Assembly: GCA_019057865.1 (NCBI GenBank)
Contig: JAHLWP010000003.1
Span: forward strand, 32,001 to 96,000
Direction: 5' to 3'
Length of the DNA: 64,000 nucleotides
DNA from: Promethearchaeota archaeon
GTDB lineage: Archaea; Asgardarchaeota; Lokiarchaeia; Sigyniarchaeales; SOKP01
The position numbers were made by a program, and so were the translations under genes. Below the pieces are notes generated by a model, which saw nothing but the letters and a program-made list of their open reading frames with translations, ran no database searches and was not told where the DNA came from. Positions 21,017 through 55,430 of this stretch are shown one piece after another; positions within the stretch are counted from its first letter, which is position 1; every line of letters begins with the position of its first letter.

Positions 21017-22480
21017 CTAAATATACGTATGAATTAAATCAATAAGATTCTTTGAAAAATTTGGTAGGTTTTTCTCAATTTTTTCTACATCAAGAGTCTT
21101 TTCTATAAAGAGAAGTAAATACAAATTGTACTTTTCGACAGTTATCTTTTTAAAGATTATTTTCTTGGATTCATCAGTTATGCCTGATGAAATAATAAAA
21201 TCTTTCTTCAATAATTTAAATTCTTTGAATGTTTTATATAAAGTTTCAAAATGAGGTGCTGAAATTTCAAATACCTTCTCGTAAATTTCAGATTTTGAAT
21301 AGGTTGATAATATAATACCATTTTCATTTAGCAATAATATTGAATCTGAGTTTATTTTCTTCGCGAATTTTCTTAATTGATTCCTAAACAATTCCCGGTT
21401 TGGACTTAACTGTGATAAACCATAAGAGTAAGCAGTAATTAATGACCAATGATCAAAAATAGATGTCTGAAAAATTTTTATGAAAAAAGTATCAGTATTT
21501 TCGTTGATTTCATCTGCTATAACTTCTAAACTTTTAAATATTTCTTTAGAACCTTTCAAATCTGGATCAAATTTATTTAAACAAACTACAATTGGTGGAT
21601 ACTCATCTAATTCTTTCAATGAATTCAATATATTTTTAAATAGAGATAATGCCTCCTTAATTCTTTCAATATCCTGTATATCAATAAAAAAGAACATCAA
21701 GTCAATATTATATATATAAACCTTTCCTTGTTGAAGGAATCTTTCTCTATATTGTTTTTGTCCTCCTAAATCCCAAATAGTAATAGTAGAGTTTTGTTCC
21801 TCAAAAATCTTTTCTTCTGTCCTATCAACTCCTTTAGTAGGAAGTGATTTGATAATTTCGGAGTATTTTCTCTTTACTCCATAAAGAAAACTTGTTTTAC
21901 CAGCTTTATCGAGGCCTGTTAATAAAATTTTTATCTGTTTTTTAAGAGAAAAAGGATCTTTTAATTCTTTAGTAAATTCAAACAAATCTGCTCTCAAATT
22001 AGCCAAAATCTCCTTATATTCACTAGAATTATTAGAATCTTGTATTCTTGTAGCTGCTCTATCAATAATAATCCGTAAATATTTCATATTTTCATAGAAA
22101 AATACCTTATCGTCTTCATTTATTAAAATTGTGATTGTTGATGCTAGAGCTTGACCCCGCGCTTTTGCTTCAGGGATCAAAAAAAAGTAAGTTAATCCGT
22201 TTAACTTTAAATCAGGAAAGGGTAGGATTCCAAAGTAATTAATCCCTTCTGTTCCAGTTCCGTCCTGATAAGTGCTCTCTCCCATTAAAAGTGAGATTGT
22301 TTTCATTGCGATGGAGAAACGGGCTTTATCATCTAACTCTTGAGGCCAGACTAATTTTGGAGTAGGGCCATTCTCATCAAAAATACTTAAAACAATTGAT
22401 TTTATTATGTTCTCTTTCTTATCATTTGGCTTTTCTTCAGTTGCTTTACTTTTCTTCGATTTTAAATTTGATTTAGGCAA
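21017..22480 (-). CDS. uDENN/longin + Rag/Arf-like small GTPase + roadblock-like C-terminal domain
   Basis: IVLSIFDENGPTP longin start; GLDKAGKTS, PTKG, WDLGGQ, NKFD, TSIFD; ILLLNENGIILS roadblock-like. Confidence 0.85.
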   Translation of the reverse strand: MPKSNLKSKKSKATEEKPNDKKENIIKSIVLSIFDENGPTPKLVWPQELDDKARFSIAMKTISLLMGESTYQDGTGTEGINYFGILPFPDLKLNGLTYFFLIPEAKARGQALASTITILINEDDKVFFYENMKYLRIIIDRAATRIQDSNNSSEYKEILANLRADLFEFTKELKDPFSLKKQIKILLTGLDKAGKTSFLYGVKRKYSEIIKSLPTKGVDRTEEKIFEEQNSTITIWDLGGQKQYRERFLQQGKVYIYNIDLMFFFIDIQDIERIKEALSLFKNILNSLKELDEYPPIVVCLNKFDPDLKGSKEIFKSLEVIADEINENTDTFFIKIFQTSIFDHWSLITAYSYGLSQLSPNRELFRNQLRKFAKKINSDSILLLNENGIILSTYSKSEIYEKVFEISAPHFETLYKTFKEFKLLKKDFIISSGITDESKKIIFKKITVEKYNLYLLLFIEKTLDVEKIEKNLPNFSKNLIDLIHTYI

Positions 22481-28506: not shown

Positions 28507-28566
28507 TATCTTAGACTCCTTAGCAAATATTCTCAGTTTTTATAAACAATTATGACTATTATATTT

Positions 28567-29526: not shown

Positions 29527-29620
29527 CTATTATTCTAAAATAAAGCTATTTATAATTAATTTTGCTTAAGTTATATATAGAGAGATTAATAATTTAGAAA
29601 TAAAAAAGAAATTTTAAACA

Positions 29621-31123
29621 ATGGAAGAATTATTTGAATATTCAGTTATTAAGGGTCTTGTTTTTAGTACCTATGATAAGTTAGGTCCTCAACCATTTTA
29701 TATGTTTCCTGAATTTATCAGTGAGATTGAGTTTAAAGAGCATTCTGCAGAAATTAATGAGAAAAATCTATTCAAACTAACCTTGCGCGATTATACCCAA
29801 ATTTCAATAAAAAATTTAAGCTTATTTATAAGTGATAGAAAAATATCGAATGATGATGATTTCCAAAGCGTACAATATTTCGCAATTCTACCTCATCCTG
29901 ATTTTAATGCAACGTCATTAACATTTTTTCATTATATAAAAACTAATTTTACTGAATCTCCTCTTGCTAATAGTTTTTCTATATTGGTTGATGAAAATAG
30001 TAGAAGTTTTCTATATAATAATATAAATAGGATAAAACCACTAATTATAGAATTTTTTACTGAATTTGATAAAGAATTATTTAATGGTTATAAAAAAAAG
30101 GAAGAAATTGAACCCCTGTTTAAAAACTTGTTAAAAAAGTTAATTGAAATTGAAAAAGCACCATCAACAATTATAACCAGTAAAAGAAAAATGAAAATTT
30201 TATTTTCAGGACTCGATGATTCCGGAAAAACTTCATTTCTGTTATCAGTTGACCGTAAATACTCGAAATTAATTGGTTTAAAGCAGACAGCTGGAGCTAA
30301 AGTGAATTCTATTAAAGCTCTTGGAGCAACAATATTTTTATGGGATTTAGGTGGCCAATTAATTTATAGAAAAAGGTATCTTAGCAAAGCTCATATTTAT
30401 TTATATGAAGCAGATTTATTATTTTACTTTATTGATATTAAAAATAGAGATAGATTCGAAGAAAGTATTGATTATTTACTGAATATTAAAAAAATTCTAA
30501 ATGAATATAATCAACAAACACCAATAATATATATTTTGTCAAAAGGGGATTCAGATATATTAAATTCTGATGAAATCCAAGAAAATGCCAGAATTATAAA
30601 AAAAAAATTAAGAGAAATCAATCTTGACGATTCTCTTGAAATCTATATAACGAGCATTTTTCAAATTTTTACAATTTTAAGAGCATTTTCTTCAGGTATT
30701 TCAAAGTTAAGTCCAAATAGAGAGATAATCAATTTTAATCTTAAAACCTTTTCTATGAAAACAAATGTTTATTTAACATTATTATTAAGTACGGATGGTT
30801 TAGTTCTTGCCGATTTCTATTCTTCTGAAGCAAAAAAATTGATTGAAATTCCTGAATCTGAACTTATTAATGTTTTTGAGATTACAGCACCTCAGTTTGC
30901 AATTATATATAAAATATTTTCTAAATTTAAGACTTTACAAAAAGAAGAAGCAATTTTTAAAGTGGCTGATTCTGTAATTATCTTTAAAAAAATTAATATT
31001 ACTGATAATAATATGTTCATTTTATTTTTAGTTGATGATGAATCTAAAGAAGAACTAATTAATGAGCAATTAGACCATTTCTTAGATTACACTAAAGATT
31101 TACTCTTAAGATATATTTCCTAA
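29621..31123 (+). CDS. uDENN/longin + Rag/Arf-like small GTPase + roadblock-like domain (paralogue of 21017..22480)
   Basis: LVFSTYDKLGPQP; GLDDSGKTS, WDLGGQ, degenerate G4 SKGD, TSIFQ; SKLSPNRE and FEITAPQF shared with the paralogue. Confidence 0.85.
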   Translation: MEELFEYSVIKGLVFSTYDKLGPQPFYMFPEFISEIEFKEHSAEINEKNLFKLTLRDYTQISIKNLSLFISDRKISNDDDFQSVQYFAILPHPDFNATSLTFFHYIKTNFTESPLANSFSILVDENSRSFLYNNINRIKPLIIEFFTEFDKELFNGYKKKEEIEPLFKNLLKKLIEIEKAPSTIITSKRKMKILFSGLDDSGKTSFLLSVDRKYSKLIGLKQTAGAKVNSIKALGATIFLWDLGGQLIYRKRYLSKAHIYLYEADLLFYFIDIKNRDRFEESIDYLLNIKKILNEYNQQTPIIYILSKGDSDILNSDEIQENARIIKKKLREINLDDSLEIYITSIFQIFTILRAFSSGISKLSPNREIINFNLKTFSMKTNVYLTLLLSTDGLVLADFYSSEAKKLIEIPESELINVFEITAPQFAIIYKIFSKFKTLQKEEAIFKVADSVIIFKKINITDNNMFILFLVDDESKEELINEQLDHFLDYTKDLLLRYIS

Positions 31124-35576: not shown

Positions 35577-38489
35577 ATGAGTGAATATGTATACGTAAAG
35601 TTTTTTGAAGAAGTCCGGAACACAGATGTCCCTTTAGTAGGAGGGAAAAATGCTTCTTTAGGAGAACTTTTAAGTTTTGGAATCCCAGTGCCTTTAGGTT
35701 TTGCGGTAACAGCGAAAGCATATGACTATATATTCGATACAAATTATTTTACAATAAAAGATAAGGAGATTTCCTTAAGACAGTTAATATCAAGAGATAT
35801 TAGAAAGATTTCTAATGAGCTAAAAAGCGAAGATATTAAATCTATCGAAAAAGTCGATAAAATATGTGCTAATGTCCGTTATGTAATAGAGCAAGCTAAA
35901 ATTCCTGATAGTCTAGGAGATGAAATTTTAGATGCCTATCATAAGTTAATAAAGCTAATTGGAGATGAAACAACATTTGCAGTTAGAAGTTCAGCAACCG
36001 CAGAAGATTTACCAGATGCTTCATTCGCAGGACAACAAGATACTCATTTGAATATATCAGGAGAAAAAGAAATATTAGAATATATATTAAAGGATATGGC
36101 ATCAGTTTTCACTACAAGGGCAACCATGTATCGTGAAAGGGCAGGGTTTGATCATTTTGACGTCAAGTTAAGTGTAGGCGTTCAAGAAATGGCAGGAGGT
36201 TTAGGCGGTGTAAAGGCATCAGGGGTGATGTTTACTGAGGATCCAGATTCCGGTAATCCAAATGTCGTTGTTATAAGAGGAACTTGGGGTCTTGGTGAAT
36301 TAATAGTACAAGGAGTAGAAAAAGGTGATGAATTCATTGTTTTTAAGCATGATCCAAAAAAACTCAGAATTATTCGTCGTGAGCTGGTGAAAAAAGAAAA
36401 AATGATGGTCTTCACGAAAGAAACTGGAAAGATTGGGACTGAAATAATATCCGTACCAGAAGAAAAACGGATGCAATATTGTTTAACAGACGTAGAAGTT
36501 TTACAATTAGCAGAATACGCCCAAAAAATAAGAAATCATTATGAAAGAAGGATGGATATAGAATGGGCTGTTGGAAATAATGGTAAAGTATACGTGGTGC
36601 AAGCTCGTCCTGAAACAGTTCATAGTATCAAAGGAGATGTTGAGGAAATCTTTTATCTTCTTGAGAATCCTGAAAAATTGACTAATGAAGAATTATTAAT
36701 CGAGAATACAGGTGTCGCTATTGGAAGAAGAATAGGATATGGAAAAGTTAAAGTAATAGAATCCATTAATGATGCGCATTTTTTAAGAGATGGGGACACT
36801 CTAATAACTGAGGAGACTAATCCAGACTGGACATCTTATATGCAAAATTTAGGTGGTGTAATCACTGAAAGAGGAGGGCCTACTTGTCATGCTGCTATAG
36901 TTTCAAGAGAATTAAATATAGCGTCTATCGTAGGAGCTGATAATATAGTAGAAACAATGAAAGAAAAACAACGTGAAGGTATTGAATATATCACTATTGA
37001 TTGCAGCCAAGGGGAGCCAAGAATCTGGCTAAAAGATGTAGAATATGATTTTGACACAATCGAATTTGCTAAACTCCCTCAAACAAAAACTAAAGTATTA
37101 GTAAATTTGGGAATACCAAAAGGGGCATTATCTTCTGGAAAATATCCCGATGGAACAGGTTTAGCAAGATTAGAATTTATTATTAACGATGAGATTCAAA
37201 TTCACCCAAATGCTTTACTAGATTTTGAAGCTTTAGTCATGAGATATGATATTTTACTAGAACAAAGAAAAAGAATTGAGAATATTAAAAAAAGTGATTT
37301 ATATCATAAAGACCCTTTTAGTCAAGAAATCTTGAAATTAAGAAAAACACTTGACAATATCAGAGAATTAACAGTTGGATATGACAATAAAGAAGAATTT
37401 TATATAGAAAAATTGGCAGAAGGAATTGCTACGATTGCTGCTGGAGTTTGGAAAGAATTACCTGATGGAGATATTGCTGAATGTGTTGTAAGACTTTCAG
37501 ATTTCAAGACTAATGAATATGCGAATCTAATAGGTGGTTGGATTTACGAAGGTGAAGAGAATAATCCAATGCTAGGATTTCGAGGGTGTTCTCGCTATGT
37601 TCATGATGAATTTCAAAATGCATTTATTTTAGAATTAAGAGCGATAAAAAAAGCCAGAGAATGGGGTCTAAAAAATATAATAGCTATGCTTCCATTTTGT
37701 AGAAGCCCAGAAGAAGCTCAAAAAATAATGGATATTATGAAGAGTGAGGGATTAATAAGAGGTCAAGATGGATTAAAAGTATATGTTATGGCTGAAATCC
37801 CATCAAATATTATCTGTGCGGATATATTTAGTCAATATTTTGATGGGTTTAGTATAGGTTCTAATGATCTGACCCAACTTACGTATGGAGTGGGACGAGA
37901 CAACGAAAAAATGATCCCCTTAATGAATTATTATAAGTATAATACAAATAGTGAAGCAATTAAGAGATCAGTGAGCCATTTAATTAAAATTGCTCATGAA
38001 TTTAATAGAAAAGTAGGTATTTGTGGACAAGCCCCAAGTGACGACCCAGATTTTCTTAGATTTCTAGTTCGTGAAGGAATTGATTCTATTTCATTAAATT
38101 TTGATACTTATGCGAGAGGTAGGATAAATACATGGAGAACAGAAATTATCGAAGCAAAACTTGATGAGGAGGAGAGAGCAATGTCTTATGAATTCTTAAG
38201 TGAATGTGATAAATTAATAGAAACAATTAGGATACCTAGGGGTAAACTTCGAAATATGGTAAGAAAACAAAGAAAGGAAGTAATTCCTAGATTAATGGAA
38301 ACTACTGAACGGTTTAATAATATCTTTGATGAAATACAAAAAATTTCTTATGATTTTGTAAAAGAGATTGATAAAGGTAAATTTATTAGTTTCAACGAGT
38401 TATTCAATAAATATCATAGTCAGATCACTGAACATGTAAATGAACTTCCAAATTTACAGCGAAAAATTCGTGAATTTGGTATTTATTAG
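35577..38489 (+). CDS. ppsA: phosphoenolpyruvate synthase
   Basis: VGGKNASLGE, VRSSATAEDLPDASFAGQQ, GGPTCHAAIVSRE, NPMLGFRG, FSIGSNDLTQ, GICGQAPSD. Confidence 0.95.
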   Translation: MSEYVYVKFFEEVRNTDVPLVGGKNASLGELLSFGIPVPLGFAVTAKAYDYIFDTNYFTIKDKEISLRQLISRDIRKISNELKSEDIKSIEKVDKICANVRYVIEQAKIPDSLGDEILDAYHKLIKLIGDETTFAVRSSATAEDLPDASFAGQQDTHLNISGEKEILEYILKDMASVFTTRATMYRERAGFDHFDVKLSVGVQEMAGGLGGVKASGVMFTEDPDSGNPNVVVIRGTWGLGELIVQGVEKGDEFIVFKHDPKKLRIIRRELVKKEKMMVFTKETGKIGTEIISVPEEKRMQYCLTDVEVLQLAEYAQKIRNHYERRMDIEWAVGNNGKVYVVQARPETVHSIKGDVEEIFYLLENPEKLTNEELLIENTGVAIGRRIGYGKVKVIESINDAHFLRDGDTLITEETNPDWTSYMQNLGGVITERGGPTCHAAIVSRELNIASIVGADNIVETMKEKQREGIEYITIDCSQGEPRIWLKDVEYDFDTIEFAKLPQTKTKVLVNLGIPKGALSSGKYPDGTGLARLEFIINDEIQIHPNALLDFEALVMRYDILLEQRKRIENIKKSDLYHKDPFSQEILKLRKTLDNIRELTVGYDNKEEFYIEKLAEGIATIAAGVWKELPDGDIAECVVRLSDFKTNEYANLIGGWIYEGEENNPMLGFRGCSRYVHDEFQNAFILELRAIKKAREWGLKNIIAMLPFCRSPEEAQKIMDIMKSEGLIRGQDGLKVYVMAEIPSNIICADIFSQYFDGFSIGSNDLTQLTYGVGRDNEKMIPLMNYYKYNTNSEAIKRSVSHLIKIAHEFNRKVGICGQAPSDDPDFLRFLVREGIDSISLNFDTYARGRINTWRTEIIEAKLDEEERAMSYEFLSECDKLIETIRIPRGKLRNMVRKQRKEVIPRLMETTERFNNIFDEIQKISYDFVKEIDKGKFISFNELFNKYHSQITEHVNELPNLQRKIREFGIY

Positions 38490-38621
38490 AGTTTTTCTTT
38501 ATCATTTCATTAAGACTTATTTTATAAGTCTATAAAAAATCAAAAAAATTATATTTTAAGAAATATTTCAGAATTAAAACCCATTATTCACTATAATCGT
38601 TATTTTGGGTGATTTTGTTCT

Positions 38622-38903
38622 ATGACAAGGGTAGAAGAATTTAGCAAGGAAGTTAAGGAAGCTTTTGAGAATGTGGACCAGTTATTACAAGGAATGATTA
38701 ATGATCGTTCTGTTCCTAGAAATATAAAAAGAATCTCTCAAAGATGCATTAATGAGTTAAAGAGAGAAGATGAAACTGCTGGCGTTCTTTCGAGCAATAT
38801 AATGTATATGGTTGGTGATCTCTCGCAAGATCCGAACATTCCCTTTCACAGTCGTACAACGATCTACAGAATCCTATCAATTTTAGAAAAGATTAAAGAT
38901 TAG
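38622..38903 (+). CDS. UPF0147 family protein
   Basis: INDRSVPRNIKR...DPNIPFHSRTTIY. Confidence 0.9.
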   Translation: MTRVEEFSKEVKEAFENVDQLLQGMINDRSVPRNIKRISQRCINELKREDETAGVLSSNIMYMVGDLSQDPNIPFHSRTTIYRILSILEKIKD

Positions 38904-39094
38904 TTAAAATTCGTTTTACCTTAAAATACTCTTAAATTTGTGTTTTTTATTTAATTTTTTTTAAAATAAATTTTTCTTGTTGAGAAAGATATTTATTAAA
39001 AACTTTAAATAGAAAAGAATTCAAATATCAAATATAGACTTTAATATATAAAAGATCAATCCATTTTCATAATAATAAGACAGGAGGAGCCTCT

Positions 39095-39724
39095 GTGTCA
39101 AAAATTTGCTCAAAATGTAGATTTAATAATAAGTTTGAAGCTAAATTTTGTGAAAATTGTGGCAGTTCATTATCAGAAGATATATTCGAAATAAAGGAAA
39201 CATTACAAAAAGCAATTATATTTTCTATTTTATGTGTCTCCTGTTTTATTTTCATAATGGTAGTAGCAAACATAGGTATATTCTTAGAAGTAGGAGTACC
39301 TCAAGGGTTTATTGGAATGGTTATTATTTGGCCTATAACGATTTTCCTAATTCTATGGATCATTTATTATCTACGGGGAGGTACTAAAGTAAGAAGATTT
39401 GTAATTTCAAATGATTATATTTTAATCCAAATCCCTGATAGAACAATTTTTCAAATATCTTGGTCAGATTTTAAAACCATTAAAATTGTGAGAAGGGCAA
39501 CATGGGATCTTGTATCTAATACACAAACGAGATATTATAATTTTAATTTTAAAGGAGATACCCATCATAAATCATTTGAAATTGAAGCTGGAAGAGAATT
39601 CTCAGGAAAAGCATTAAAAAAAATAAGAGCTAAATTAGAAGAATTAGCTAATAATAAAGGCATAGAATTTATTTATTTTAAAAAAAAGCCTAAAAAAAGT
39701 AAGGATTTAGAAAATGTAATGTGA
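39095..39724 (+). CDS. zinc-ribbon + two TM + PH-like domain membrane protein
   Basis: CSKC...FCENCG; two TMs; ISWSDFKTI bacterial-PH-like pattern; GGAGG Shine-Dalgarno before GTG. Confidence 0.75.
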   Translation: MSKICSKCRFNNKFEAKFCENCGSSLSEDIFEIKETLQKAIIFSILCVSCFIFIMVVANIGIFLEVGVPQGFIGMVIIWPITIFLILWIIYYLRGGTKVRRFVISNDYILIQIPDRTIFQISWSDFKTIKIVRRATWDLVSNTQTRYYNFNFKGDTHHKSFEIEAGREFSGKALKKIRAKLEELANNKGIEFIYFKKKPKKSKDLENVM

Positions 39725-39829
39725 TAAAAACATTCAAACACTATCTATCTTATTTTAATAATTTAACCCTTTAAATCGTTAGACTTCTATATACATATCC
39801 TTTCCGCCTCTTCTAAGATAATCCATTGC

Positions 39830-39859
39830 TATATGTAGATATACATATATCTACATATA
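39830..39859. repeat. perfect 14-bp inverted repeat
   Basis: TATATGTAGATATA-CA-TATATCTACATATA. Confidence 0.85.
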
Positions 39860-39993
39860 ATTCATTTAATAGGAAGAATAACATTTCATTAATATGAATA
39901 AATTAGAAAAAGTTAAATATTCGTATTAAGAATAATAAAGTGATTTATTGAGTTAAAATCAAATATTAATATTCTTGTTGGTGAAATTTCATA

Positions 39994-40698
39994 ATGGTTT
40001 CTCCAGATGGTTGGATTGATGGTATTACTGCCTCAGGTGTGGTAATTTTTGGTATAATCTTTGGTTTATTCTTTTTTTATGTATCAAGAAAAAGGAAAGC
40101 AAAACTTCTTTTATTTTTAGGTTTAGCTAATTTACTTGCAGGTCTAATGTTTTTAGGAGTGTTTTTAGATTTTTTACTGGTTGTAATAACAGAAAATAAT
40201 ATAGATAATTCGAATGGATTGGTTGGAATTCTTAGTTATATATGGTTTGCTCCCACCGTTATTACTGCGATGTATATTGGTACTGAACTCCTTACGCCAA
40301 AGATGAAATGGTATATAATATCTATAATTGCAATTATTAGTATTATTTTTGAAATTGTTATTTTCATGGATCCCTTAAACGCTTTTTATTTTGACGAACC
40401 GACGACGATCCCACCCGAAAGATTAATTGATTATAATGTTAATTTAGATACTATGGCAGGAATGTTAGTAGGGAGCCTATTACTATCTGTATTAATTTTT
40501 CTTGGAATCGGATTTTTATACAAGGCTTTTCAATCTACAGGTGAAATAAAAAGAAAGTTCTATTTCTTATCACTAGGTTCATTATGTTTTTGCATATTTG
40601 GACTTTTAGAAGGTTTAACTGCTCCAGGTTTTATGGTGATTATCGTAAGAATTGGCTACTTGAGTAGTTTTTGGTTTATGTACGTGGGATTAAGATAA
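39994..40698 (+). CDS. seven-TM membrane protein without cytoplasmic tail
   Basis: 7 hydrophobic segments; similar to the N-terminal parts of the 44633, 45876 and 51010 genes (WFAP, LID loop, STGxxKRK). Confidence 0.85.
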   Translation: MVSPDGWIDGITASGVVIFGIIFGLFFFYVSRKRKAKLLLFLGLANLLAGLMFLGVFLDFLLVVITENNIDNSNGLVGILSYIWFAPTVITAMYIGTELLTPKMKWYIISIIAIISIIFEIVIFMDPLNAFYFDEPTTIPPERLIDYNVNLDTMAGMLVGSLLLSVLIFLGIGFLYKAFQSTGEIKRKFYFLSLGSLCFCIFGLLEGLTAPGFMVIIVRIGYLSSFWFMYVGLR

Positions 40699-40799
40699 GA
40701 ATAGCCAAAAATTCAATCTTTTTTTTTTATATAAAGATTTGCTTCGATTCATAAGGCAATAAAATAATTAAACAAGACTTATGATTAGAAATTAAAATA

Positions 40800-41429
40800 T
40801 TACTTTATTCTTAATAGGAGATATTGGAACATACATCCTGCTCTGTTTCTTGCTAAAACTTTTAAGCCATAAGATTTTATTAATCTCTCAAAATCATCTA
40901 AATTATATTTAAATATCCATGCCATATTTTGAGTTTTATTATCATAAGGATTAGGAATATCGACCATGCATTTTCCGGTTGGTTTAAGTACTCTTATAAT
41001 TTCATCGAATACTTGTTTTACATATTCTAATGGGTAATATTCGAACATCCCTATACACGTTACCCAATCAAAGAATTGATCAGGGTAAGGTAATTGATCT
41101 GCCACACAGACTCGAATATCTTTAATATTAAATTCTAAATTATTTTGGTTAATTTTCTGCTTCAATTGTTCAAGCATTTTTGGAGATTGATCAATTCCAT
41201 AACAGAAGCTTCCTAATTTTGCCATTTCAATTAAGAATGTCCCTGTGCCTGTGGCAATATCTAAAACAACTTCATTAGGTTGTACGTGAACTAATTTTTT
41301 AAAGCCGTTATATTCGTTTAATGCATCTTCACTGCTCCACCATTCTTTATCATAGTTATTAGCATGAGTATCATTATATTGCTTACGAAATTTCTTGATC
41401 TCCTCAATCTTCTTTTCTTTCTCTTTCAT
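40800..41429 (-). CDS. class I SAM-dependent methyltransferase (UbiE-like)
   Basis: VLDIATGTG, GIDQSPKML, LPYPDQFFD, RVLKPTG. Confidence 0.9.
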   Translation of the reverse strand: MKEKEKKIEEIKKFRKQYNDTHANNYDKEWWSSEDALNEYNGFKKLVHVQPNEVVLDIATGTGTFLIEMAKLGSFCYGIDQSPKMLEQLKQKINQNNLEFNIKDIRVCVADQLPYPDQFFDWVTCIGMFEYYPLEYVKQVFDEIIRVLKPTGKCMVDIPNPYDNKTQNMAWIFKYNLDDFERLIKSYGLKVLARNRAGCMFQYLLLRIK

Positions 41430-41688
41430 TTTAAGATTTTTAAGATATTTAAGATATTTATTTAAAATGATCTACTTATTAAATCATATATCTTATAATT
41501 AAACAACTAGTTTGAATAGTTTTTAATTTATATCTTTAGGATTTAATACCTACTTTTTTCAATAATATTACTAAATATTTGGATCAATAAAAAATAAAAA
41601 AGCGAAAATACAAAATATTATTGAATAAGGATTTTTTTTTTTATTAAAGCATCCTTTTATAAATAGCTGTAAATGGAGGAAATCTAAG

Positions 41689-42738
41689 ATGGAAGAAGAT
41701 ATCATAACCTCGGTTTTATATATTGAGCTTAATGATGAACTTGGACCAAACCCAATTGTTTGTCTTCCTTCTGATTTCTCTCTTGAAAATCAAATGCATA
41801 TAAGTATAAAAGTTATTACAATTCTTTCTGGTGAACATGGTCTGGTTCCAGAATCTCTCGTAATCCTTCCATTTCCTTCACTAAATTTAAAGGGATTGAT
41901 TAAATATATAATTTGGGATGATGAATCTCGTAGAGGTGATATTGGTCAATCTGCTATTACTGTACTTTTTAAAAATGTTGATGACGTTATATTTTATCAA
42001 TATAAGAATAATCTTGAGTTAATTTTTAATGAAATTGCAGCAAAAATCATTAAGTTAGAAAAATCAAAAGCAGATAAGAAATATATTACGAACGAGATAA
42101 AAACACTTGAAAGAGTTATATTAAATGCATTATATGAGTTGAAAGTTAAAGAAACTTCTACTCCAGATATGGAAGCTTTTCCTGAAATATCAAGAAAAAG
42201 TTTTGATTTTATAGATTATAAATTTAAGATAAGCATTTGTGGAGATCCTGGTGTTGGTAAAACTTCTTTAATTTTAAGATTTACTAAAAAAGCGTTTAGA
42301 AGAAAGTACATTCCAACATTAGGAGTCGTGGTTTCAGATCGAGCTTTTAAGATCGACGATTCTGTTGTTCAATTGGTAATTTGGGATATCGCGGGACAAG
42401 TAAAGTTCGAAACCATGAGACGACAGTTTTATCTCGGAACAGATGGGGTTTTCTTAGTATTTGACTTAACTAGCTCTAAATCTTTCGATAGCATTCTAAG
42501 ATGGTATCAAGATATTGAAAACCAATTGAAAAAGACAAGAGAAATTATAGGATTTATAATAGGTAATAAAAATGATTTAATCAATGAAAAAATTGTTGGA
42601 TTTGAACAAGCAAATAAGTTAGCAAATGATCTGAATCTTAACTTTATAGAAACTTCAGCTTTAACAGGAGAAAATGTTGAACAAGCTTTTTATGACATTG
42701 CCAAAACTTTATATGAATCATTAAAGAATGATTTATAA
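41689..42738 (+). CDS. uDENN/longin + Rab-like small GTPase
   Basis: LYIELNDELGPNP; GDPGVGKTS, YIPTLG, WDIAGQ, GNKND, ETSAL. Confidence 0.9.
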   Translation: MEEDIITSVLYIELNDELGPNPIVCLPSDFSLENQMHISIKVITILSGEHGLVPESLVILPFPSLNLKGLIKYIIWDDESRRGDIGQSAITVLFKNVDDVIFYQYKNNLELIFNEIAAKIIKLEKSKADKKYITNEIKTLERVILNALYELKVKETSTPDMEAFPEISRKSFDFIDYKFKISICGDPGVGKTSLILRFTKKAFRRKYIPTLGVVVSDRAFKIDDSVVQLVIWDIAGQVKFETMRRQFYLGTDGVFLVFDLTSSKSFDSILRWYQDIENQLKKTREIIGFIIGNKNDLINEKIVGFEQANKLANDLNLNFIETSALTGENVEQAFYDIAKTLYESLKNDL

Positions 42739-42777
42739 TAAAAATCCATTCAAAAATTTGATTTCTTTTAAGTTATA

Positions 42778-42803
42778 CTTCGTGAAAGCTGAGTTTCACG
42801 AAG
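42778..42803. repeat. perfect 10-bp hairpin between the tandem longin-Rab genes
   Basis: CTTCGTGAAA-GCTGAG-TTTCACGAAG. Confidence 0.8.
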
Positions 42804-42941
42804 AAAATTCATAGTTATATGAAATAAAAAAAAAGGTTATTTATTCTTCATCTTCTTCTTAAATTATAATAATTTATATAAATTAATCATATATAGTACC
42901 AATTTTTTTTTAATTAAGTTATAAATTTATTGATACTTACG

Positions 42942-43982
42942 ATGGCTAAAGAACTAATAAAAGCAATAATTTTTACAGAATTTGACGAAGAACTTGGACC
43001 AAATCCGGTTTTATGGTACCCTTCTGATTTACCTGAGAGCTTTCGCATGGTAGTTAGTATTAAATCAATTACAATTCTTTCAGCAGACCAAGGATTGATG
43101 CCGAAATCTCTAATCATTATGCCATTTCCCTCATTAAACTCGAAAGGTATAATAAAATATATTGAAAAAGAAGATAAATCTCGCCGCGGTGGTGTTGCTC
43201 AATCATCTATCACTTTACTTTTCAGTGAAATTGATGATCTGATTTTTTATAAATATTTGATCTTTCTAGAACCTGCATTTAATGAAACTACTCAAGAAAT
43301 AATAAAAATAGAAGATATTAAAACAAATAAAGAAATTCTTTCTAATGAAATAGATAATTTACGGACCGAAATTTTAAATATTTTAGAGGACCTCCGAATA
43401 AAAGAACAATCTGTCCTAAAAACTGAAGCTTTTCCTGAAGAACCTGTAGAAGATAAAGAGGTCATAAAATATAAATTTAAAATAGTGGTTTGTGGTGATC
43501 CGGGGGTAGGAAAAACTTCCACTATTTTAAGATTTACTGATAATGCCTTTATACGTACGTATATTCCAACCCTAGGGGTTAATATTAGCGAAAAAAATGT
43601 TAAGATTGATGGAAACTTAGTTGGATTAATTCTCTGGGACATAGCTGGGCAAAGCAAGTTTGAAACAATGAGAAAACATTTCTATAAGGGAACAGAAGCA
43701 GTTATTTTAATATTTGATTTAACAAATTTGAAATCCTTTGAGAGCATACCTAAATGGTATGAAGACATAAAAAAATATGTAATAGCTGATAATAAAATTG
43801 TTGGATTTATCTTAGGAAACAAGGAAGATTTAGAAGATAGTAGAATAATTGCTAAAAAAGATGCTAATAAAATTGCAAAAGAACTTGGCCTTGATTATAT
43901 AGAAACTTCTGCTTTAACTGGAAAAAATGTAGAGTTAAGTTTTCATAAAGTAGCAGAAGCTTTAATTAATTCTAAAAAATAA
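42942..43982 (+). CDS. uDENN/longin + Rab-like small GTPase (tandem paralogue)
   Basis: IIFTEFDEELGPNP; GDPGVGKTS, YIPTLG, WDIAGQ, GNKED, ETSAL; ATG start chosen over the TTG at 42930. Confidence 0.9.
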   Translation: MAKELIKAIIFTEFDEELGPNPVLWYPSDLPESFRMVVSIKSITILSADQGLMPKSLIIMPFPSLNSKGIIKYIEKEDKSRRGGVAQSSITLLFSEIDDLIFYKYLIFLEPAFNETTQEIIKIEDIKTNKEILSNEIDNLRTEILNILEDLRIKEQSVLKTEAFPEEPVEDKEVIKYKFKIVVCGDPGVGKTSTILRFTDNAFIRTYIPTLGVNISEKNVKIDGNLVGLILWDIAGQSKFETMRKHFYKGTEAVILIFDLTNLKSFESIPKWYEDIKKYVIADNKIVGFILGNKEDLEDSRIIAKKDANKIAKELGLDYIETSALTGKNVELSFHKVAEALINSKK

Positions 43983-44001
43983 TGAGAAATCAATTAGAAT
44001 A

Positions 44002-44577
44002 ATGGAATTAGAAGAAATTATATATAAAAGAAGGACTATCAGAAGATTTAAGCAAGATTCAGTTCCATTAGATATATTAAAAAAGCTGATAGATTTTGCT
44101 CGTGTTGCTCCAATGGCAACTAATCGGCAAGCTCTTGAATTTATTATCATTCAGAATGACGAAAGTCGCCAAAAACTATTTCCATTGGTAAATTGGGCAG
44201 CACTTCTACCAAAAAATGAAAGAACTCCTGAGAAGGGAAGAGAACCTACAGCTTATATAATTATTCTTGTAAATACTAAAATAAAAAAAACTTATGTTGA
44301 TTTTGATGTTGGAGCAGCAGTTGAAAATATTCTTCTTGGGGCAGTACATTTTGGATTAGGTTGTTGTTGGATGGGAAGTATTAATGCAAAAAAGATTCGA
44401 GAATTATTTGAGATTCCTGACTATTATGATATAAAGCATGTTATAAGTTTAGGATATCCAGATGAATTAACTATCATTGAACCTTATAAAGGTTCCTTTA
44501 ATTATTGGAAGGATGAAGAAGGTACCATACATGTACCTAAAAGAGATTTAAATGATATAATTTTCAAAATATATTAA
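44002..44577 (+). CDS. nitroreductase family protein
   Basis: RRTIRRF, APMATNRQ, DVGAAVENILLGA..GLGCCW, LGYP. Confidence 0.92.
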   Translation: MELEEIIYKRRTIRRFKQDSVPLDILKKLIDFARVAPMATNRQALEFIIIQNDESRQKLFPLVNWAALLPKNERTPEKGREPTAYIIILVNTKIKKTYVDFDVGAAVENILLGAVHFGLGCCWMGSINAKKIRELFEIPDYYDIKHVISLGYPDELTIIEPYKGSFNYWKDEEGTIHVPKRDLNDIIFKIY

Positions 44578-44632: not shown

Positions 44633-45679
44633 ATGCCTTCTGCTATTGGAGTAATAAATGCTTTAACCGTTATTATATGGTTTACCCTTGGTTTAATATG
44701 GGGGATATTTAGTCTAATTAAATCAAAGAAATCAAAATCATATGTTTTATTTTCTATGGGTTTAGCTGTATTATTTATAAGCTTTTTATATTCAGGTTTG
44801 GTCTTAGATTCATTATTAGTTCTTTTTACAGAGAGCAACTTAGATACAAATATACATGGTATTCTTACATTTTTCTGGTTTGGTCCTTTAGTAATTATAG
44901 GTACCTATATATTTAATGAACTTATTGCGATGAACTTTAAATTATGGTTGAAGTATTTAATTTTAATTTATTTTTCAATAATAAGTATAATCTTTGAAAT
45001 TCTGTTATTTTTAACTCATTCAAGTTCGATCATTTATAAAATTCCCTCAGAACCTGGTCAAGACTTAATTGATAATATCTTAGTTTTTTGGACACCTCCA
45101 TTTTATATGCTGGCAATTTCTTTATTTCCTGGGATTATAGTATTTAGTCTTTCATTTTTATATGGGGGTATTAAATCCTCAGGAATATTAAGAAAGAAAC
45201 TCATATTATTATTAATCACTTTTGCAGTATTTTTTGGTTTTGGTTCTTTAGATATTGCTATTTTCCCTTTAGATTTCTTTAATTTACCTAAAGGTACATC
45301 AATAATTATAATAAGAGTTTTTATGATTATTGGGGGATTTATCTTTTTTTTTAGCTTAAAAGAAGAATCCATTAAAGCTTCCATTAAAAAATTTAAATCT
45401 GAAGAACCATCTCTTATAGATATTTTAACTGAGACTAAATCTAAAGATATATCACAAGAAAAAATCTTAGCATTTCGAGAACAAACAATATGTCTAATCT
45501 GTGAAAGAGAAATACAAGGCTTTATTAAAATTTTCTTATGTCCTCAATGTGAAGCATTATATTGTGAAAGATGCGCACAAAAGATGATAGAAATGAGTAA
45601 TATGTGTTGGATATGTGATGAGCAAATTGACGAATCAAAACCTGTTAAGCAAGATAATGATATATCTGGAAGCCTATAA
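44633..45679 (+). CDS. seven-TM protein with C-terminal C4C4 RING-type zinc finger
   Basis: 7 TMs then CLIC-x12-CPQC-x4-CERC-x10-CWIC. Confidence 0.85.
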   Translation: MPSAIGVINALTVIIWFTLGLIWGIFSLIKSKKSKSYVLFSMGLAVLFISFLYSGLVLDSLLVLFTESNLDTNIHGILTFFWFGPLVIIGTYIFNELIAMNFKLWLKYLILIYFSIISIIFEILLFLTHSSSIIYKIPSEPGQDLIDNILVFWTPPFYMLAISLFPGIIVFSLSFLYGGIKSSGILRKKLILLLITFAVFFGFGSLDIAIFPLDFFNLPKGTSIIIIRVFMIIGGFIFFFSLKEESIKASIKKFKSEEPSLIDILTETKSKDISQEKILAFREQTICLICEREIQGFIKIFLCPQCEALYCERCAQKMIEMSNMCWICDEQIDESKPVKQDNDISGSL

Positions 45680-45875
45680 TTAAAAGCTATTTTTAAAATG
45701 CTAAAAAAAAGTAATATGACATCTCGCTTTACATTAACGTGAAAAAATTTTTAAGTAAATCGAGCAAAATTAATTATGTAATCTTTTGCAAATTTAGATT
45801 TTGTCATTAAAAAGAAAAACACAAGCTCAAATATAATACTAAATCTACTACTATAATACAAAAAAGGTGTAATAT

Positions 45876-46979
45876 ATTACTTTAACTCCTATTGGACTAT
45901 TTAACGGAATAACAGCAATTATTTGGTATATTACTGGCTTAATTTGGGGTTTCTTTAGTCTCTATAGATATAAAAAATCAAAAGCAGATATTTTATTGTA
46001 TTTTGGCTTAACAATTATATTCATAAGTATGTTTTTCACTGGTATTATTTTAGATTTTTTCACAATCCTCTTTACTGGCAAGAATTTGAATAATACCTCT
46101 GGAATTCATGGTATTTTAACATTTATATGGTTTGCTCCTACTCTCTCATTTGGGATATATATTGGTCTTGAATTTTTGATACCAGGTGTTAAAAAAGAAT
46201 TAAAAAATTCAATATTATTTACTTATATTATTTTAGCAATAATCTTTGATTTATTCCTTTTTTTAGACCCATTTGGTACTGTAGATTATAAGATGCCTTC
46301 AAAATCAGGGGAAAACTTAATTGATAATGTTTTAATTATAGGTTCTCCTGCTTCTATTTTAGTTATGATCTTTTTTGCAACAGCAATACTGTTCTATGTT
46401 GTAAGATTTTTGTATGGATCTGTTAAATCAACAGGTCTCTTAAGAGAGAAATTCACTAGACTAACTATATGTTTTTTTCTCTTAATAGGGTTTGGAACAG
46501 TGGATATTTTATTTTTCCTGCCGACTATAATTTTAATTATTGTTAGATATGGAATGGTTGTTAGTGGACTTTTTTTTGTTTTGGGAGTAAAAAAAGAAGA
46601 AGCGCCAACCAAACCAAAAGAAGTTATTCATGATGATGAAGTTGAGAGTGGAGTCCTAACAACTTCATTATCCAAGGTTTTATCATATTCTAGACCATCT
46701 GATATATCTACAAATGATATTGAGTTATATCGAAAACAAACAATCTGTTTAGTTTGTAAAAAAAAATTAAAAGGATTCATAGACGTTTTTATTTGCCCTA
46801 AATGTAAGTCATTTTATTGTGATAAATGCGCTCAAATATTAACTCAGTTAGAAAATATGTGTTGGTCATGTAATAATCCAATTGACGATTCAAAACCCAT
46901 TAAACCTTTTAAAATTGAAGAAGAAGATATCGATATCAGCATATCAGAAGGATCAAGGAAAACACTCAGAGAGGAATAG
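45876..46979 (+). CDS. seven-TM protein with C-terminal C4C4 RING-type zinc finger; probable ATT start
   Basis: frame extends 40 codons upstream of the TTG at 45996 and encodes a TM1 homologous to that of 44633; AGGTG lies 6 nt before ATT; CLVC-x12-CPKC-x4-CDKC-x10-CWSC. Confidence 0.8.
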   Translation: MTLTPIGLFNGITAIIWYITGLIWGFFSLYRYKKSKADILLYFGLTIIFISMFFTGIILDFFTILFTGKNLNNTSGIHGILTFIWFAPTLSFGIYIGLEFLIPGVKKELKNSILFTYIILAIIFDLFLFLDPFGTVDYKMPSKSGENLIDNVLIIGSPASILVMIFFATAILFYVVRFLYGSVKSTGLLREKFTRLTICFFLLIGFGTVDILFFLPTIILIIVRYGMVVSGLFFVLGVKKEEAPTKPKEVIHDDEVESGVLTTSLSKVLSYSRPSDISTNDIELYRKQTICLVCKKKLKGFIDVFICPKCKSFYCDKCAQILTQLENMCWSCNNPIDDSKPIKPFKIEEEDIDISISEGSRKTLREE

Positions 46980-54866: not shown

Positions 54867-55430
54867 TCAGCTTTTACCTTGCAATTCTAAGAATAATGCC
54901 TTATATTTATTATATAATTCTCTGATTATTACTTGAAAGGCCTGAGATACTCCTTCACCTGTTTTTGCTGATGTTCTATAATATTCAAGAAAATTTCCTT
55001 TTTTCATAATTTTTAAAATCTTTGTATCTACCAAATTCTCTTTATCAACTAAATCAACTTTATTAGCAAATACCACGATGGGAATATCACCACAAAATTT
55101 AAGAATATCATCATGCCAATTTGGTATATGCTTGAGACTATTTTTACCAAGATCATTTTCTTCAAGCGAATATACAATAATAGCTGCTTTGCTATCTCTA
55201 TAGAAGGAGGGTCGTAAGAAATGAAACTCATCTTGACCCGCAATATCCCAGAAAAAAAGCTCACAAAAGTCTCCATCTATTTCCATTTCATATATAGAAA
55301 ACTGTGCTCCAATAGTTTTGATGTATTCCTCTTGAAAATTACCTTCTGTAAATTTTTGTATTAAGGATGTTTTCCCTACTTGCCCATCTCCAATAACAGT
55401 TATTTTAAATACAAATTTTTGCCTTTTCAT
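54867..55430 (-). CDS. Rab-like small GTPase
   Basis: GDGQVGKTS, YIKTIG, WDIAGQ, ANKVD, TSAK; no C-terminal Cys. Confidence 0.93.
   Translation of the reverse strand: MKRQKFVFKITVIGDGQVGKTSLIQKFTEGNFQEEYIKTIGAQFSIYEMEIDGDFCELFFWDIAGQDEFHFLRPSFYRDSKAAIIVYSLEENDLGKNSLKHIPNWHDDILKFCGDIPIVVFANKVDLVDKENLVDTKILKIMKKGNFLEYYRTSAKTGEGVSQAFQVIIRELYNKYKALFLELQGKS

What the first reader, a model, noticed from the sequence alone, without database searches (positions are those of the whole stretch)
41689..43982. Tandem uDENN/longin-Rab fusions with a conserved RRG at the putative arginine-finger hairpin
Seen: both proteins start with an NPRL2-like strand (IIFTEFDEELGPNP; LYIELNDELGPNP). They share ILPFP/IMPFP with the Rag fusions and have D(E/K)SRRG where 21017 has AKARG. 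An intact Rab-like G domain follows, with no C-terminal Cys. Known: SMCR8-C9orf72 is a GAP for Arf/Rab GTPases, while DENN proteins are Rab GEFs. Inference: the same regulatory module has been attached to two different GTPase classes, giving built-in (cis or reciprocal) GAP/GEF control. These genes lie just upstream of the 7TM-RING/Ub cluster on the same strand.
Basis: partly seen in the sequence, partly recalled or inferred. Interest (0 to 1): 0.75.

Follow-up and report, generated by a model that had tools for sequence, protein, structure and literature searches.

The report
Rab-like GTPases with built-in folliculin-type longin
Two neighbouring genes of an Asgard archaeon each join a folliculin/NPRL2-type longin domain, which keeps the motifs that mark GTPase-activating longins in eukaryotes, to an intact Rab-like GTPase, so regulator and switch that are separate proteins in eukaryotes are one chain here.

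Summary
ORF1 (41689-42738) and ORF2 (42930/42942-43982) are 53% identical paralogs. Each has a C-terminal Ras/Rab-family G domain (Pfam PF00071, E about 1e-47) with all G1-G5 motifs and no C-terminal Cys.

The first 157 residues match no Pfam family but fold confidently as a longin domain (pLDDT 88.7). The best structural matches are a Lokiarchaeal longin (8yqg, Z 19) and then only the GAP-longin group: Lst4, FLCN, NPRL2 and C9orf72/SMCR8 (Z 11-14). DENN, Mon1-Ccz1, SNARE and TRAPP longins score 9.6 or less.

The GP motif (b1-b2 loop) and R82-G83 (b4-b5 hairpin) are invariant or nearly so in 98 orthologs, and they tend to be lost together in distant relatives. The same longin subtype is fused to a Rag-like GTPase at 21017.

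The family is present in 40 of 40 sampled genomes of the window's own family. It sits in a conserved gene order: PEP-utilising dikinase, UPF0147, (7TM), L-Rab1, L-Rab2, nitroreductase.

My reading is a built-in Arg-finger GAP acting within a longin-mediated dimer. This is inferred, not shown: no residue-level superposition and no geometry could be obtained.

The architecture is already catalogued (one 'LG' in the MK-D1 Rab clade). The GAP-motif reading for Rab fusions appears undescribed in the library searched. Earlier notes of this scan on the same genome made similar points.

The parts
41689..42738 (+). L-Rab1 gene (349 aa): longin domain, linker and Rab-like G domain
   Evidence: ORF; Pfam Ras E 1.1e-47; AF2 pLDDT 84.3; GGAGG 8 nt upstream and a TATA-like TTTATAAATA about 30 nt upstream
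41689..42159 (+). Longin domain of L-Rab1 (residues 1-157): b1 6-15, b2 19-26, a1 32-48, b3 58-62, b4 67-77, b5 85-95, helices 96-104, 106-125 and 130-157
   Evidence: AF2 of the domain, pLDDT 88.7, pTM 0.82; VIA-align: 8yqg_B Z 19.0, Lst4 13.8, FLCN complex 12.9, GATOR1 12.2, C9orf72-SMCR8 12.0; Foldseek
41743..41748 (+). GP motif (G19-P20) at the b1-b2 turn of L-Rab1
   Evidence: G19 98 of 98 and P20 96 of 98 in orthologs; PMC12290439 reports the motif as specific to GAP longins
41929..41937 (+). R81-R82-G83 in the b4-b5 hairpin of L-Rab1. R82 is the candidate arginine finger
   Evidence: R82 67 of 67 in clade 1 and 24 R plus 7 K of 31 in clade 2; G83 invariant. Aligns with ARG of the Rag fusion. 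Sub-threshold Pfam Folliculin hits start here
42160..42207 (+). Linker (residues 158-173), predicted disordered, with a conserved (E)AFP motif (F164, P165)
   Evidence: pLDDT below 50 for residues 161-173; E155 and P165 invariant and F164 nearly invariant in A1; E155, F164 and P165 all invariant in A4
42208..42735 (+). Rab-like G domain of L-Rab1 (residues 174-349): P-loop GDPGVGKT 185-192, T210, WDIAGQ 232-237, NKND 293-296, ETSA 321-324
   Evidence: Pfam; VIA-align: Rab3C Z 24.3, Rab28 23.4, Sec4p 23.1; motif conservation
42942..43982 (+). L-Rab2 gene (346 aa from ATG 42942; the ORF listing starts it at TTG 42930): same architecture, with GP at 42996-43001 and RRG at 43182-43190
   Evidence: start inferred from ortholog alignment and from the genome search match
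21017..22480 (-). Related: Rag-like GTPase with the same longin subtype (GP, ILPFP, ARG)
   Evidence: Pfam Gtr1_RagA E 2e-26; profile hit E 2e-31; BLASTP E 5e-16
29621..31123 (+). Related: second longin-Rag fusion, GP kept, no aligned Arg-Gly
   Evidence: Pfam Gtr1_RagA E 3e-20; profile hit; BLASTP E 0.006
39994..40698 (+). Context: 7TM protein without a RING tail. In 39 of 75 related loci a member of this 7TM family lies within the roughly 6-kb flanks, in most of them directly upstream of L-Rab1
   Evidence: synteny by tblastn
54867..55430 (-). Context: free Rab-like GTPase, 37% identical to the L-Rab1 G domain. It lies downstream of the nitroreductase gene in 7 related loci
   Evidence: Pfam Ras E 5e-42; BLASTP E 8e-30; synteny

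Best explanation
L-Rab1 and L-Rab2 are self-contained small-GTPase switches.

Shown: each is an N-terminal longin domain of the folliculin/NPRL2/SMCR8 ('GAP longin') structural class, joined by a flexible linker of about 16 residues to a catalytically complete Rab-like G domain. The G domain has no intrinsic arginine at the switch I positions where MglA and G-alpha carry theirs.

Inferred: the longin domains dimerise, as homodimers or as an L-Rab1:L-Rab2 heterodimer, in the way all known longin and roadblock platforms do. The dimer forms a cup for a G domain. R82, positioned by the neighbouring GP turn, enters the nucleotide site as an arginine finger and works with the conserved Q237 to speed GTP hydrolysis. 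On this reading GTP hydrolysis is set by dimerisation or by a conformational change, not by recruiting a separate GAP.

The finger may act on the chain's own G domain or on the partner's. This is open.
For: - Architecture and intact G motifs.
- Longin fold with high confidence.
- Apart from an Asgard longin (8yqg), the eight best structural matches are all FLCN, FNIP/Lst4, NPRL2/Npr2 or C9orf72/SMCR8 chains (Z 11.2-13.8). Every GEF-type or SNARE longin scores 9.6 or less. Foldseek agrees.
- The GP motif and the Arg are the two features that PMC12290439 reports as shared by GAP longins and absent from non-GAP longins. Both are nearly invariant here.
- The two motifs co-occur in cluster representatives (48/4/1/13). 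Where the Arg was lost independently, GP went the same way in about 3 of 4 pairs and never the opposite way.
- By sheet topology (established longin strand order, with b1 next to b5 and antiparallel), the b1-b2 turn and the b4-b5 hairpin lie side by side. This matches the published statement that GP neighbours the finger.
- Sub-threshold Pfam Folliculin hits in three members begin at the RG hairpin. ESM Atlas neighbours include clusters that carry NPR2.
- Fusion itself is Rosetta-stone evidence that this longin works with a small GTPase. The same subtype is also fused to Rag-like G domains.
- The closest solved relative, 8yqg, is deposited as a dimer (title).
- Both paralogs are kept, usually adjacent, in many genomes, with parallel sub-trees.
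- From the sequence and established knowledge of MglA (Arg at T-1) and G-alpha (Arg at T-3): P209 is at T-1 and Y207 at T-3, so the G domain has no built-in finger.
Against: - No residue-level superposition of R82 on FLCN R164, NPRL2 R78 or SMCR8 R147 could be made. Profile searches of PDB sequences reach only 8yqg, which has GP but no Arg at this place.
- Pfam Folliculin and C9orf72 hits are below the curated cut-offs.
- About a fifth of distant family members have lost Arg and GP yet keep an intact G domain with Q237. The fusion is therefore maintained for more than the finger, for example for dimerisation or scaffolding.
- In the ORF2 clade R82 is Lys in 7 of 31.
- Both paralogs carry the Arg, unlike the asymmetric FLCN/FNIP and NPRL2/NPRL3 pairs.
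- Several genera have a single copy, so a heterodimer cannot be obligatory.
- No biochemical data exist for any member.
Confidence: 0.45

Rival explanations
1. The longin domain is mainly a dimerisation and scaffold platform, like the roadblock C-terminal domains of Rag GTPases, or a GEF-type platform as in Mon1-Ccz1, TRAPP or DENN proteins. On this reading the conserved Arg-Gly and GP residues stabilise the hairpins or bind another partner or ligand, and do not act catalytically on GTP.
For: Most longin and roadblock modules that act on GTPases are platforms or GEFs (PMC10933270). Family members that lost Arg and GP keep the fusion and an intact G domain. The nearest solved relative, 8yqg, has GP but no Arg and is a dimer.
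Against: Structural matches to GEF longins are clearly weaker (Z 9.6 or less, against 11-14). An exposed hairpin Arg that is 67 of 67 invariant and followed by an invariant Gly, and that is lost together with GP, is what a catalytic site looks like. PMC12290439 reports GP as absent from non-GAP longins.
Confidence: 0.27
2. The longin domain is a GAP, but for a different GTPase acting in trans: the free Rab-like protein at 54867 or the Rag-like proteins of the same window. Its own G domain then serves to localise or gate that GAP activity, giving a GTPase cascade.
For: A homolog of the free Rab lies just downstream of the L-Rab pair and the nitroreductase gene in 7 related loci. Every copy of this longin subtype found in the genome, together with several small GTPases, lies within this one window. 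Eukaryotic longin GAPs act in trans.
Against: A covalent fusion conserved in 40 of 40 genomes of the family points first to the fused G domain as the client. The free Rab is not a constant neighbour, being present in a minority of loci.
Confidence: 0.15
3. The motif resemblance is coincidental and the N-terminal region is an unrelated, family-specific extension of a Rab-like protein.
For: No Pfam family reaches threshold on the N-terminal 175 residues.
Against: Confident longin fold, Z 19 to a solved Asgard longin and Z 11-14 to FLCN, NPRL2 and SMCR8 chains. HMM hit to 8yqg at E 6e-8.
Confidence: 0.02

Closest known systems
Eukaryotic longin-domain GAP complexes: FLCN-FNIP2 (RagC/D), GATOR1 NPRL2-NPRL3 (RagA/B), C9orf72-SMCR8 (Arf, weakly Rab8a/Rab11a)
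   Same: Longin fold of the same structural subclass (Z 11-14). GP motif at the b1-b2 turn and a conserved Arg followed by Gly, as in the reported GAP longins (PMC12290439). The longin is paired with a second, paralogous longin protein.
   Different: No DENN or NPRL2 C-terminal domain follows. The client-type G domain is fused in the same chain. The G domain is Rab-like, not Rag or Arf. Both paralogs carry the Arg. Sequence similarity is below Pfam thresholds. GAP activity is untested.
Asgard longin-GTPase fusions (LG, LGR, LGX architectures of Prometheoarchaeum MK-D1, PMC10933270; 'longin fused to Rag family GTPases', Liu et al., doi 10.1101/2020.10.19.343400)
   Same: N-terminal longin plus small GTPase in Lokiarchaeia. 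Supplementary Fig. 5 of PMC10933270 lists one 'LG' protein (WP_147663426.1) inside the MK-D1 Rab clade. NCBI already names members 'Rab family GTPase'.
   Different: Those papers discuss the Rag/Arf-like fusions. In the text I could read they do not point out the GP/Arg GAP-type motifs, the paralog pair or the conserved gene order for the Rab-like fusions.
GP-motif/Arg-finger 'FLCN/SMCR8-type' longins of Asgard archaea (PMC12290439, section 2.6)
   Same: Same two motifs in the same arrangement in Asgard longins. That paper asks which GTPases are their partners.
   Different: As described in that paper, those are 15 longin proteins, highlighted for their presence in Heimdallarchaeia, and it proposes ArfR or Rag partners. 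Here the motif-bearing longin is covalently joined to a Rab-like G domain, and in the same window to Rag-like ones. This names a partner class directly.
PDB 8yqg, longin domain of a Lokiarchaeota Roadblock-Longin protein (dimer)
   Same: Closest solved structure (Z 19.0, rmsd 2.2 A over 145 residues; HMM E 6e-8). GP motif aligned.
   Different: No Arg-Gly at the b4-b5 hairpin (KEPEK instead). Fused to a roadblock domain, not to a GTPase.
DENN-domain Rab GEFs (uDENN-DENN-dDENN)
   Same: uDENN is a longin-like fold, and DENND1A matches at Z 9.6. The client is a Rab.
   Different: No DENN or dDENN domains. PMC12290439 reports GP as absent from DENND proteins. The structural match is weaker than to the GAP longins.

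Membership tests
Longin domain fold | b-b-a-b-b-b-a-a topology: five-stranded antiparallel sheet with flanking helices | tested here: met
   AF2 secondary structure E6-15, E19-26, H32-48, E58-62, E67-77, E85-95, then helices. Z 19.0 to 8yqg and many longins at Z 8-14.
FLCN/NPRL2/SMCR8-type GAP longin (module) | Closer in structure to FLCN, NPRL2, SMCR8, C9orf72 and Lst4 than to other longins | tested here: met
   Ranks 2-8 are only these proteins (Z 11.2-13.8). DENN, Mon1-Ccz1, SNARE and TRAPP longins score 9.6 or less. Foldseek gives the same order.
FLCN/NPRL2/SMCR8-type GAP longin (module) | GP motif at the end of the b1-b2 loop | tested here: met
   G19 98 of 98 and P20 96 of 98. Located at residues 19-20, where b2 begins.
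FLCN/NPRL2/SMCR8-type GAP longin (module) | Conserved arginine at the structural position of FLCN R164, NPRL2 R78 or SMCR8 R147 | tested here: inconclusive
   R82 is conserved and sits in the b4-b5 hairpin next to the GP turn. No residue-level superposition was available. HMM searches do not reach the eukaryotic chains. Sub-threshold Folliculin hits start at this hairpin.
FLCN/NPRL2/SMCR8-type GAP longin (module) | GAP activity that depends on the arginine | not testable with these tools
   Needs enzymology.
FLCN, SMCR8, C9orf72 or NPRL2 proteins (whole-protein families) | Longin followed by a DENN domain (FLCN, SMCR8, C9orf72) or by the NPRL2 C-terminal domain, with a Pfam Folliculin, NPR2 or C9orf72 match above threshold | tested here: not met
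   A Ras-family G domain follows instead. Best Folliculin hit in the family is 16.9 bits against a cut-off of 23.3. These proteins are therefore not members of those families; only the longin module is of that class.
Ras/Rab-family small GTPase (Pfam PF00071) | Pfam score above the gathering threshold and intact G1-G5 motifs | tested here: met
   162 bits against 21.6. GxxxxGK[ST], T210, DxxGQ, NKxD and SA conserved in both clades.
Rab subfamily (eukaryotic sense) | Closest structures are Rabs; C-terminal Cys motif for prenylation | tested here: not met
   Rabs head the list (Rab3C Z 24.3, 30% identity), but Ras and Rho follow within 2-3 Z units. No C-terminal Cys in either protein or in the aligned orthologs. 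Best described as Rab-like.
DENN-domain Rab GEF | Central DENN and dDENN domains after the uDENN/longin | tested here: not met
   No DENN Pfam hit. Residues 174-349 are a G domain.
Asgard longin-GTPase fusion (LG architecture, PMC10933270) | N-terminal longin domain and C-terminal small-GTPase domain in one Asgard protein | tested here: met
   Nearest relatives are all Asgard MAG proteins.

The most novel reading that the evidence does not exclude
L-Rab1 and L-Rab2 form a reciprocal, dimerisation-activated GTPase pair. Each folliculin-type longin supplies the arginine finger to the partner's Rab-like domain. This fused form would be close to the ancestral state from which the separate eukaryotic longin-GAP:GTPase pairs (FLCN-RagC, GATOR1-RagA, C9orf72/SMCR8-Arf/Rab) arose by fission. 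The switch would be driven by the conserved neighbouring 7TM protein and would feed into the adjacent membrane RING/ubiquitin system.
Probability: 0.15. Interest if true: 0.85.

Novelty: new variant of a known kind. Interest (0 to 1): 0.55.

Why it matters
In eukaryotes, longin-domain GAPs (folliculin, GATOR1, C9orf72-SMCR8) control nutrient signalling and lysosomal traffic. Their origin, and the identity of their first client GTPases, are open questions. PMC12290439 asks explicitly which Asgard GTPases partner the GP/Arg longins.

A family that is universal in one Lokiarchaeial family and covalently joins such a longin to a Rab-like G domain gives a direct guilt-by-fusion answer. In the same window the same longin subtype is joined to Rag-like G domains.

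The proteins are also small (about 350 residues) and soluble-looking, so they are a tractable model for testing whether the GP/Arg site is catalytic.

If GAP activity were shown, the longin-GAP mechanism would predate eukaryotes, and its client range would already have included Rab-like proteins.

Tried and rejected
1. Complex prediction with the L-Rab1 longin, the L-Rab2 longin, the L-Rab1 G domain as partner and GTP gave score 0.12 against a mark of 0.32. That is no verdict, and I use it neither for nor against binding. No contacts were returned.

2. phmmer of the N-terminal domain against PDB gave TALE-repeat hits with zero passing stretches. I treat these as a repeat-inflated artefact and rejected them.

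3. Profile searches of PDB sequences with two N-terminal alignments found only 8yqg. NPRL2, FLCN and SMCR8 were not reached, so R82 could not be mapped onto the eukaryotic fingers by sequence.

4. Pfam on the N-terminal domain found nothing at threshold. It gave only sub-threshold Folliculin and C9orf72-like hits in divergent members.

5. I tested whether the unusual P-loop proline (GDPxVGKT, at the Ras G12 position) co-varies with the longin Arg. The raw table looked strong (42/10/4/10, Fisher p 4e-4), but phylogenetically independent pairs showed no consistent direction. I rejected it as evidence for a cis or trans contact.

6. The search for related loci with the divergent N-terminal alignment failed because no block was conserved enough. 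I repeated it with A1.

7. The full-length AF2 model (pTM 0.67) could not be used to measure the distance from R82 to the nucleotide, because the tools do not expose coordinates or PAE.

8. I could not find a publication for 8yqg in the held library.
Full report
**What is there.** The window is AT-rich (GC about 0.26-0.30). It lies in a 4.26-Mb genome that is 99.7% complete. The nearest relatives of the proteins studied are all Asgard MAG proteins, mostly labelled Promethearchaeota.

ORF1 (41689-42738, 349 aa) and ORF2 (42930-43982) are co-oriented, about 200 nt apart and 53% identical (E 7e-133). Orthologs and the genome search align ORF2 from the ATG at 42942, so it is probably 346 aa.

Residues from about 180 to the end are a Ras-family G domain (PF00071, 162 bits; TIGR00231). 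Residues 1-175 match no Pfam or NCBIfam model.

**The G domain.** All five G motifs are present and conserved in 98 orthologs: GDPxVGK[TS], T210, WDIAGQ with Q237 invariant, NKxD and ETSA.

In VIA-align, Rabs head the list (Rab3C Z 24.3 at 1.9 A over 165 residues, Rab28, Rab27a, Sec4p, Rab9A; 28-33% identity). Ras and Rho follow within 2-3 Z units. I therefore call it Rab-like.

There is no C-terminal Cys. The positions where MglA (T-1) and G-alpha (T-3) carry an intrinsic arginine are P209 and Y207 here. This comparison rests on the sequence and on established knowledge of those families.

**The N-terminal domain.** AlphaFold2 with a 70-row alignment gives pLDDT 88.7 and pTM 0.82. The order of elements is b1 6-15, b2 19-26, a1 32-48, b3 58-62, b4 67-77, b5 85-95, followed by three helices up to residue 157. 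That is a longin topology.

Foldseek against PDB puts a Lokiarchaeal longin dimer (8yqg) first. NPRL2 in GATOR1, Npr2 in SEAC, Lst4, FLCN-FNIP2 and C9orf72-SMCR8 follow.

The Foldseek-independent VIA-align search of 48,161 representatives gives:

| Match | Z |
|---|---|
| 8yqg_B (2.2 A over 145 residues) | 19.0 |
| Lst4 longin | 13.8 |
| FLCN complex chain (6nzd_H) | 12.9 |
| GATOR1 chain (8fw5_B) | 12.2 |
| C9orf72-SMCR8 (7o2w_A) | 12.0 |
| Npr2 (8adl_S) | 11.7 |
| C9orf72-SMCR8-WDR41 chain (6lt0_B) | 11.5 |
| FLCN-FNIP2 complex chain (6ulg_N) | 11.2 |
| DENND1A | 9.6 |
| Mon1-Ccz1, BLOC-3, VAMP7, sedlin, Sec22 | 8.7-9.2 |
| Roadblocks | 7-8 |

The domain therefore belongs structurally with the GAP-longin group and not with GEF or SNARE longins. 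Weak sequence signals agree: sub-threshold Pfam Folliculin hits in 3 of 20 divergent members and one C9orf72-like hit, and ESM Atlas neighbours whose clusters carry NPR2.

**The motifs.** PMC12290439 (Traffic 2025) reports that a GP motif at the b1-b2 turn, next to the arginine finger, is shared by SMCR8, C9orf72, FLCN and NPRL2. It is absent from FNIP2, NPRL3 and non-GAP longins, and recurs in some Asgard longins.

Here G19-P20 sits exactly at that turn, and R81-R82-G83 lies in the b4-b5 hairpin. In a longin sheet b1 pairs antiparallel with b5, so the two turns are neighbours. This last point is inferred from topology, not measured.

In 98 orthologs G19 and G83 are invariant and P20 is 96 of 98. 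R82 is 67 of 67 in the ORF1 clade and 24 R plus 7 K of 31 in the ORF2 clade. R81 varies more.

Among 66 cluster representatives (50% identity clusters, down to about 22% identity to ORF1), R82 and GP co-occur in a 48/4/1/13 table. The Arg was lost about five times on the tree. In the four independent contrasts GP went the same way in about three and never the opposite way, which is too few contrasts for significance.

The three Pfam Folliculin sub-threshold alignments all start at the RG hairpin.

I could not obtain a residue-level superposition on FLCN R164, NPRL2 R78 or SMCR8 R147, so that equivalence remains an inference. 8yqg, the nearest solved relative, aligns its GP but has no Arg at this position.

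**Same module on two GTPase classes.** A profile of the N-terminal domain finds only four places in the whole genome, and all of them are in this window: ORF1, ORF2, the 487-aa Gtr1/RagA-type protein at 21017 (E 2e-31) and the 500-aa one at 29621 (E 0.0016; 9e-25 with the broader profile).

BLASTP of the ORF1 longin against the 21017 protein gives E 5e-16 and 31% identity. GP, ILPFP and (R)RG / (A)RG are aligned. The 29621 protein keeps GP but shows no aligned Arg-Gly.

**Distribution and history.**
- The word-indexed database holds 198 relatives, nearly all 344-351 aa.
- An exhaustive HMMER pass over 1.84 billion representatives finds 141 clusters. Most are about 345 aa, some are 460-525 aa (the length of the Rag-type fusions), and the short ones look like fragments.
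- In species genomes, 441 stretches encode a relative.
- In a sample of 201 genomes of the phylum, 74 have a match at E 1e-8 or better: 40 of 40 in the window's own family, 3 of 3 in a second family of the same order, and patchy weaker matches with other ORF lengths elsewhere.
- A tree of 98 full-length orthologs splits into an ORF1-type clade and an ORF2-type clade (SH-aLRT 95) with parallel internal structure.
- Two genera usually have both types, and other genera have one copy.
- The basal members of the 'ORF2' side occupy the syntenic position of L-Rab1, and the tree is rooted only at its midpoint. I can say that the duplication is old within the family and that both copies are retained. 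I cannot say that it predates the family.

**Neighbourhood.** In 75 related loci the gene order is PEP-utilising dikinase (35577; PPDK_N, PEP-utilizers), UPF0147 (38622), [7TM protein], L-Rab1, [insertions], L-Rab2, nitroreductase. UPF0147 is present in 67 of 75 loci, the dikinase in 64, a member of the 7TM family in 39 and the nitroreductase in 39.

The Ubl/E2/E1/JAB genes follow in a few loci (Ubl in 5). A homolog of the free Rab (54867) follows the nitroreductase in 7 loci.

In this window a methyltransferase gene on the opposite strand separates the 7TM gene from L-Rab1.

**Mechanism.** I commit to a built-in arginine-finger GAP. On this reading the longin domains dimerise, a G domain docks on the platform, and R82, held by the GP turn, completes the active site together with Q237.

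- Shown: the architecture, the fold class, motif conservation and coupling, and the fusion to two GTPase classes.
- Inferred: dimerisation, docking, catalysis, and whether the finger acts in cis or in trans.

Three points weigh against a purely catalytic role. Members without the finger keep the fusion and an intact G domain. Part of the ORF2 clade has Lys at position 82. Some genera have only one copy.

The rival readings are a platform or GEF role, and a GAP acting on another GTPase. I put the main reading at about 0.45.

**Novelty.** The longin-GTPase architecture in Lokiarchaeia is known. PMC10933270 lists one 'LG' protein in the MK-D1 Rab clade, and Liu et al. mention longin-Rag fusions and NPRL2-like longins. 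GP/Arg longins in Asgard archaea are also known (PMC12290439).

In the library I searched, no paper other than PMC12290439 and an MglA/MglB paper combines Asgard, longin, Rab and arginine finger. None that I read describes GAP-motif longins fused to Rab-like domains, the paralog pair or the synteny. I therefore rate this a new variant of a known kind, of moderate interest.

Earlier notes of this scan on the same genome reached similar readings for the neighbouring Rag fusions and for the 7TM/ubiquitin genes.

Noticed in passing
window 35577-44577 and loci L005-L079: Strongly conserved gene order around the L-Rab genes: a 970-aa PEP-utilising dikinase (PPDK_N, PEP-utilizers, PEP-utilizers_C), a 93-aa UPF0147 protein, often a 7TM protein, then L-Rab1, L-Rab2 and a nitroreductase. 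UPF0147 is present in 67 of 75 loci and the dikinase in 64. Whether the link to a central-metabolism enzyme is functional is unknown.
   Followed up: partly
window 42247-42249 (P187) and orthologs: The P-loop reads GDPxVGK[TS], with a nearly invariant Pro at the position of Ras Gly12, where a GAP arginine finger approaches. Raw counts link this Pro to the presence of the longin Arg (Fisher p 4e-4), but phylogenetically independent contrasts show no link.
   Followed up: yes
window 42151-42185 (E155 to P165): The predicted-disordered linker between the longin and the G domain carries conserved residues: E155 and P165 are invariant and F164 nearly so ('EAFP') in close orthologs, and E155 is at least 90% conserved across the wide family. 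A conserved motif in a low-pLDDT linker suggests a docking element.
   Followed up: no
window 42779-42804: A perfect 10-bp inverted repeat (CTTCGTGAAA ... TTTCACGAAG) lies 40 nt after the L-Rab1 stop. T-rich runs and a TATA-like TTTATATAAAT follow before L-Rab2. The two genes may be transcribed separately.
   Followed up: no
window 42930-42944: the ORF listing starts ORF2 at TTG 42930, but all orthologs align from the Met encoded at 42942 (ATG). That is probably the real start.
   Followed up: partly
window 21017-31123: All four copies of this longin subtype found in the 4.26-Mb genome lie within 23 kb of this window. A third Gtr1/RagA-type GTPase without an N-terminal longin (26802-27767, minus strand) lies between the two longin-Rag fusions.
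   Followed up: partly
window 39994-40698, 44633-46979, 51010-52083; genome contigs C23 and C82: The 7TM family has 7 copies in the genome, 4 of them in this window. In 39 of 75 related loci a member lies within about 6 kb of the L-Rab genes, usually directly upstream of L-Rab1.
   Followed up: partly
window 41914-41916 (W76) and orthologs: Residue 76, at the end of b4 just before the RRG hairpin, is an invariant Trp in the ORF1 clade. It is Arg or Lys in most of the ORF2 clade (21 R, 3 K, 3 W of 31). This is a clade-specific difference next to the candidate finger.
   Followed up: no
PDB 9m28, 8yl2, 8yqg, 9jue: Recent depositions of Lokiarchaeal Rag-like GTPases (LokiRagM, LokiRagO), a Roadblock-Longin longin dimer and an MK-D1 roadblock show that a structural group is working on these families. 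I found no paper for 8yqg in the held library.
   Followed up: partly
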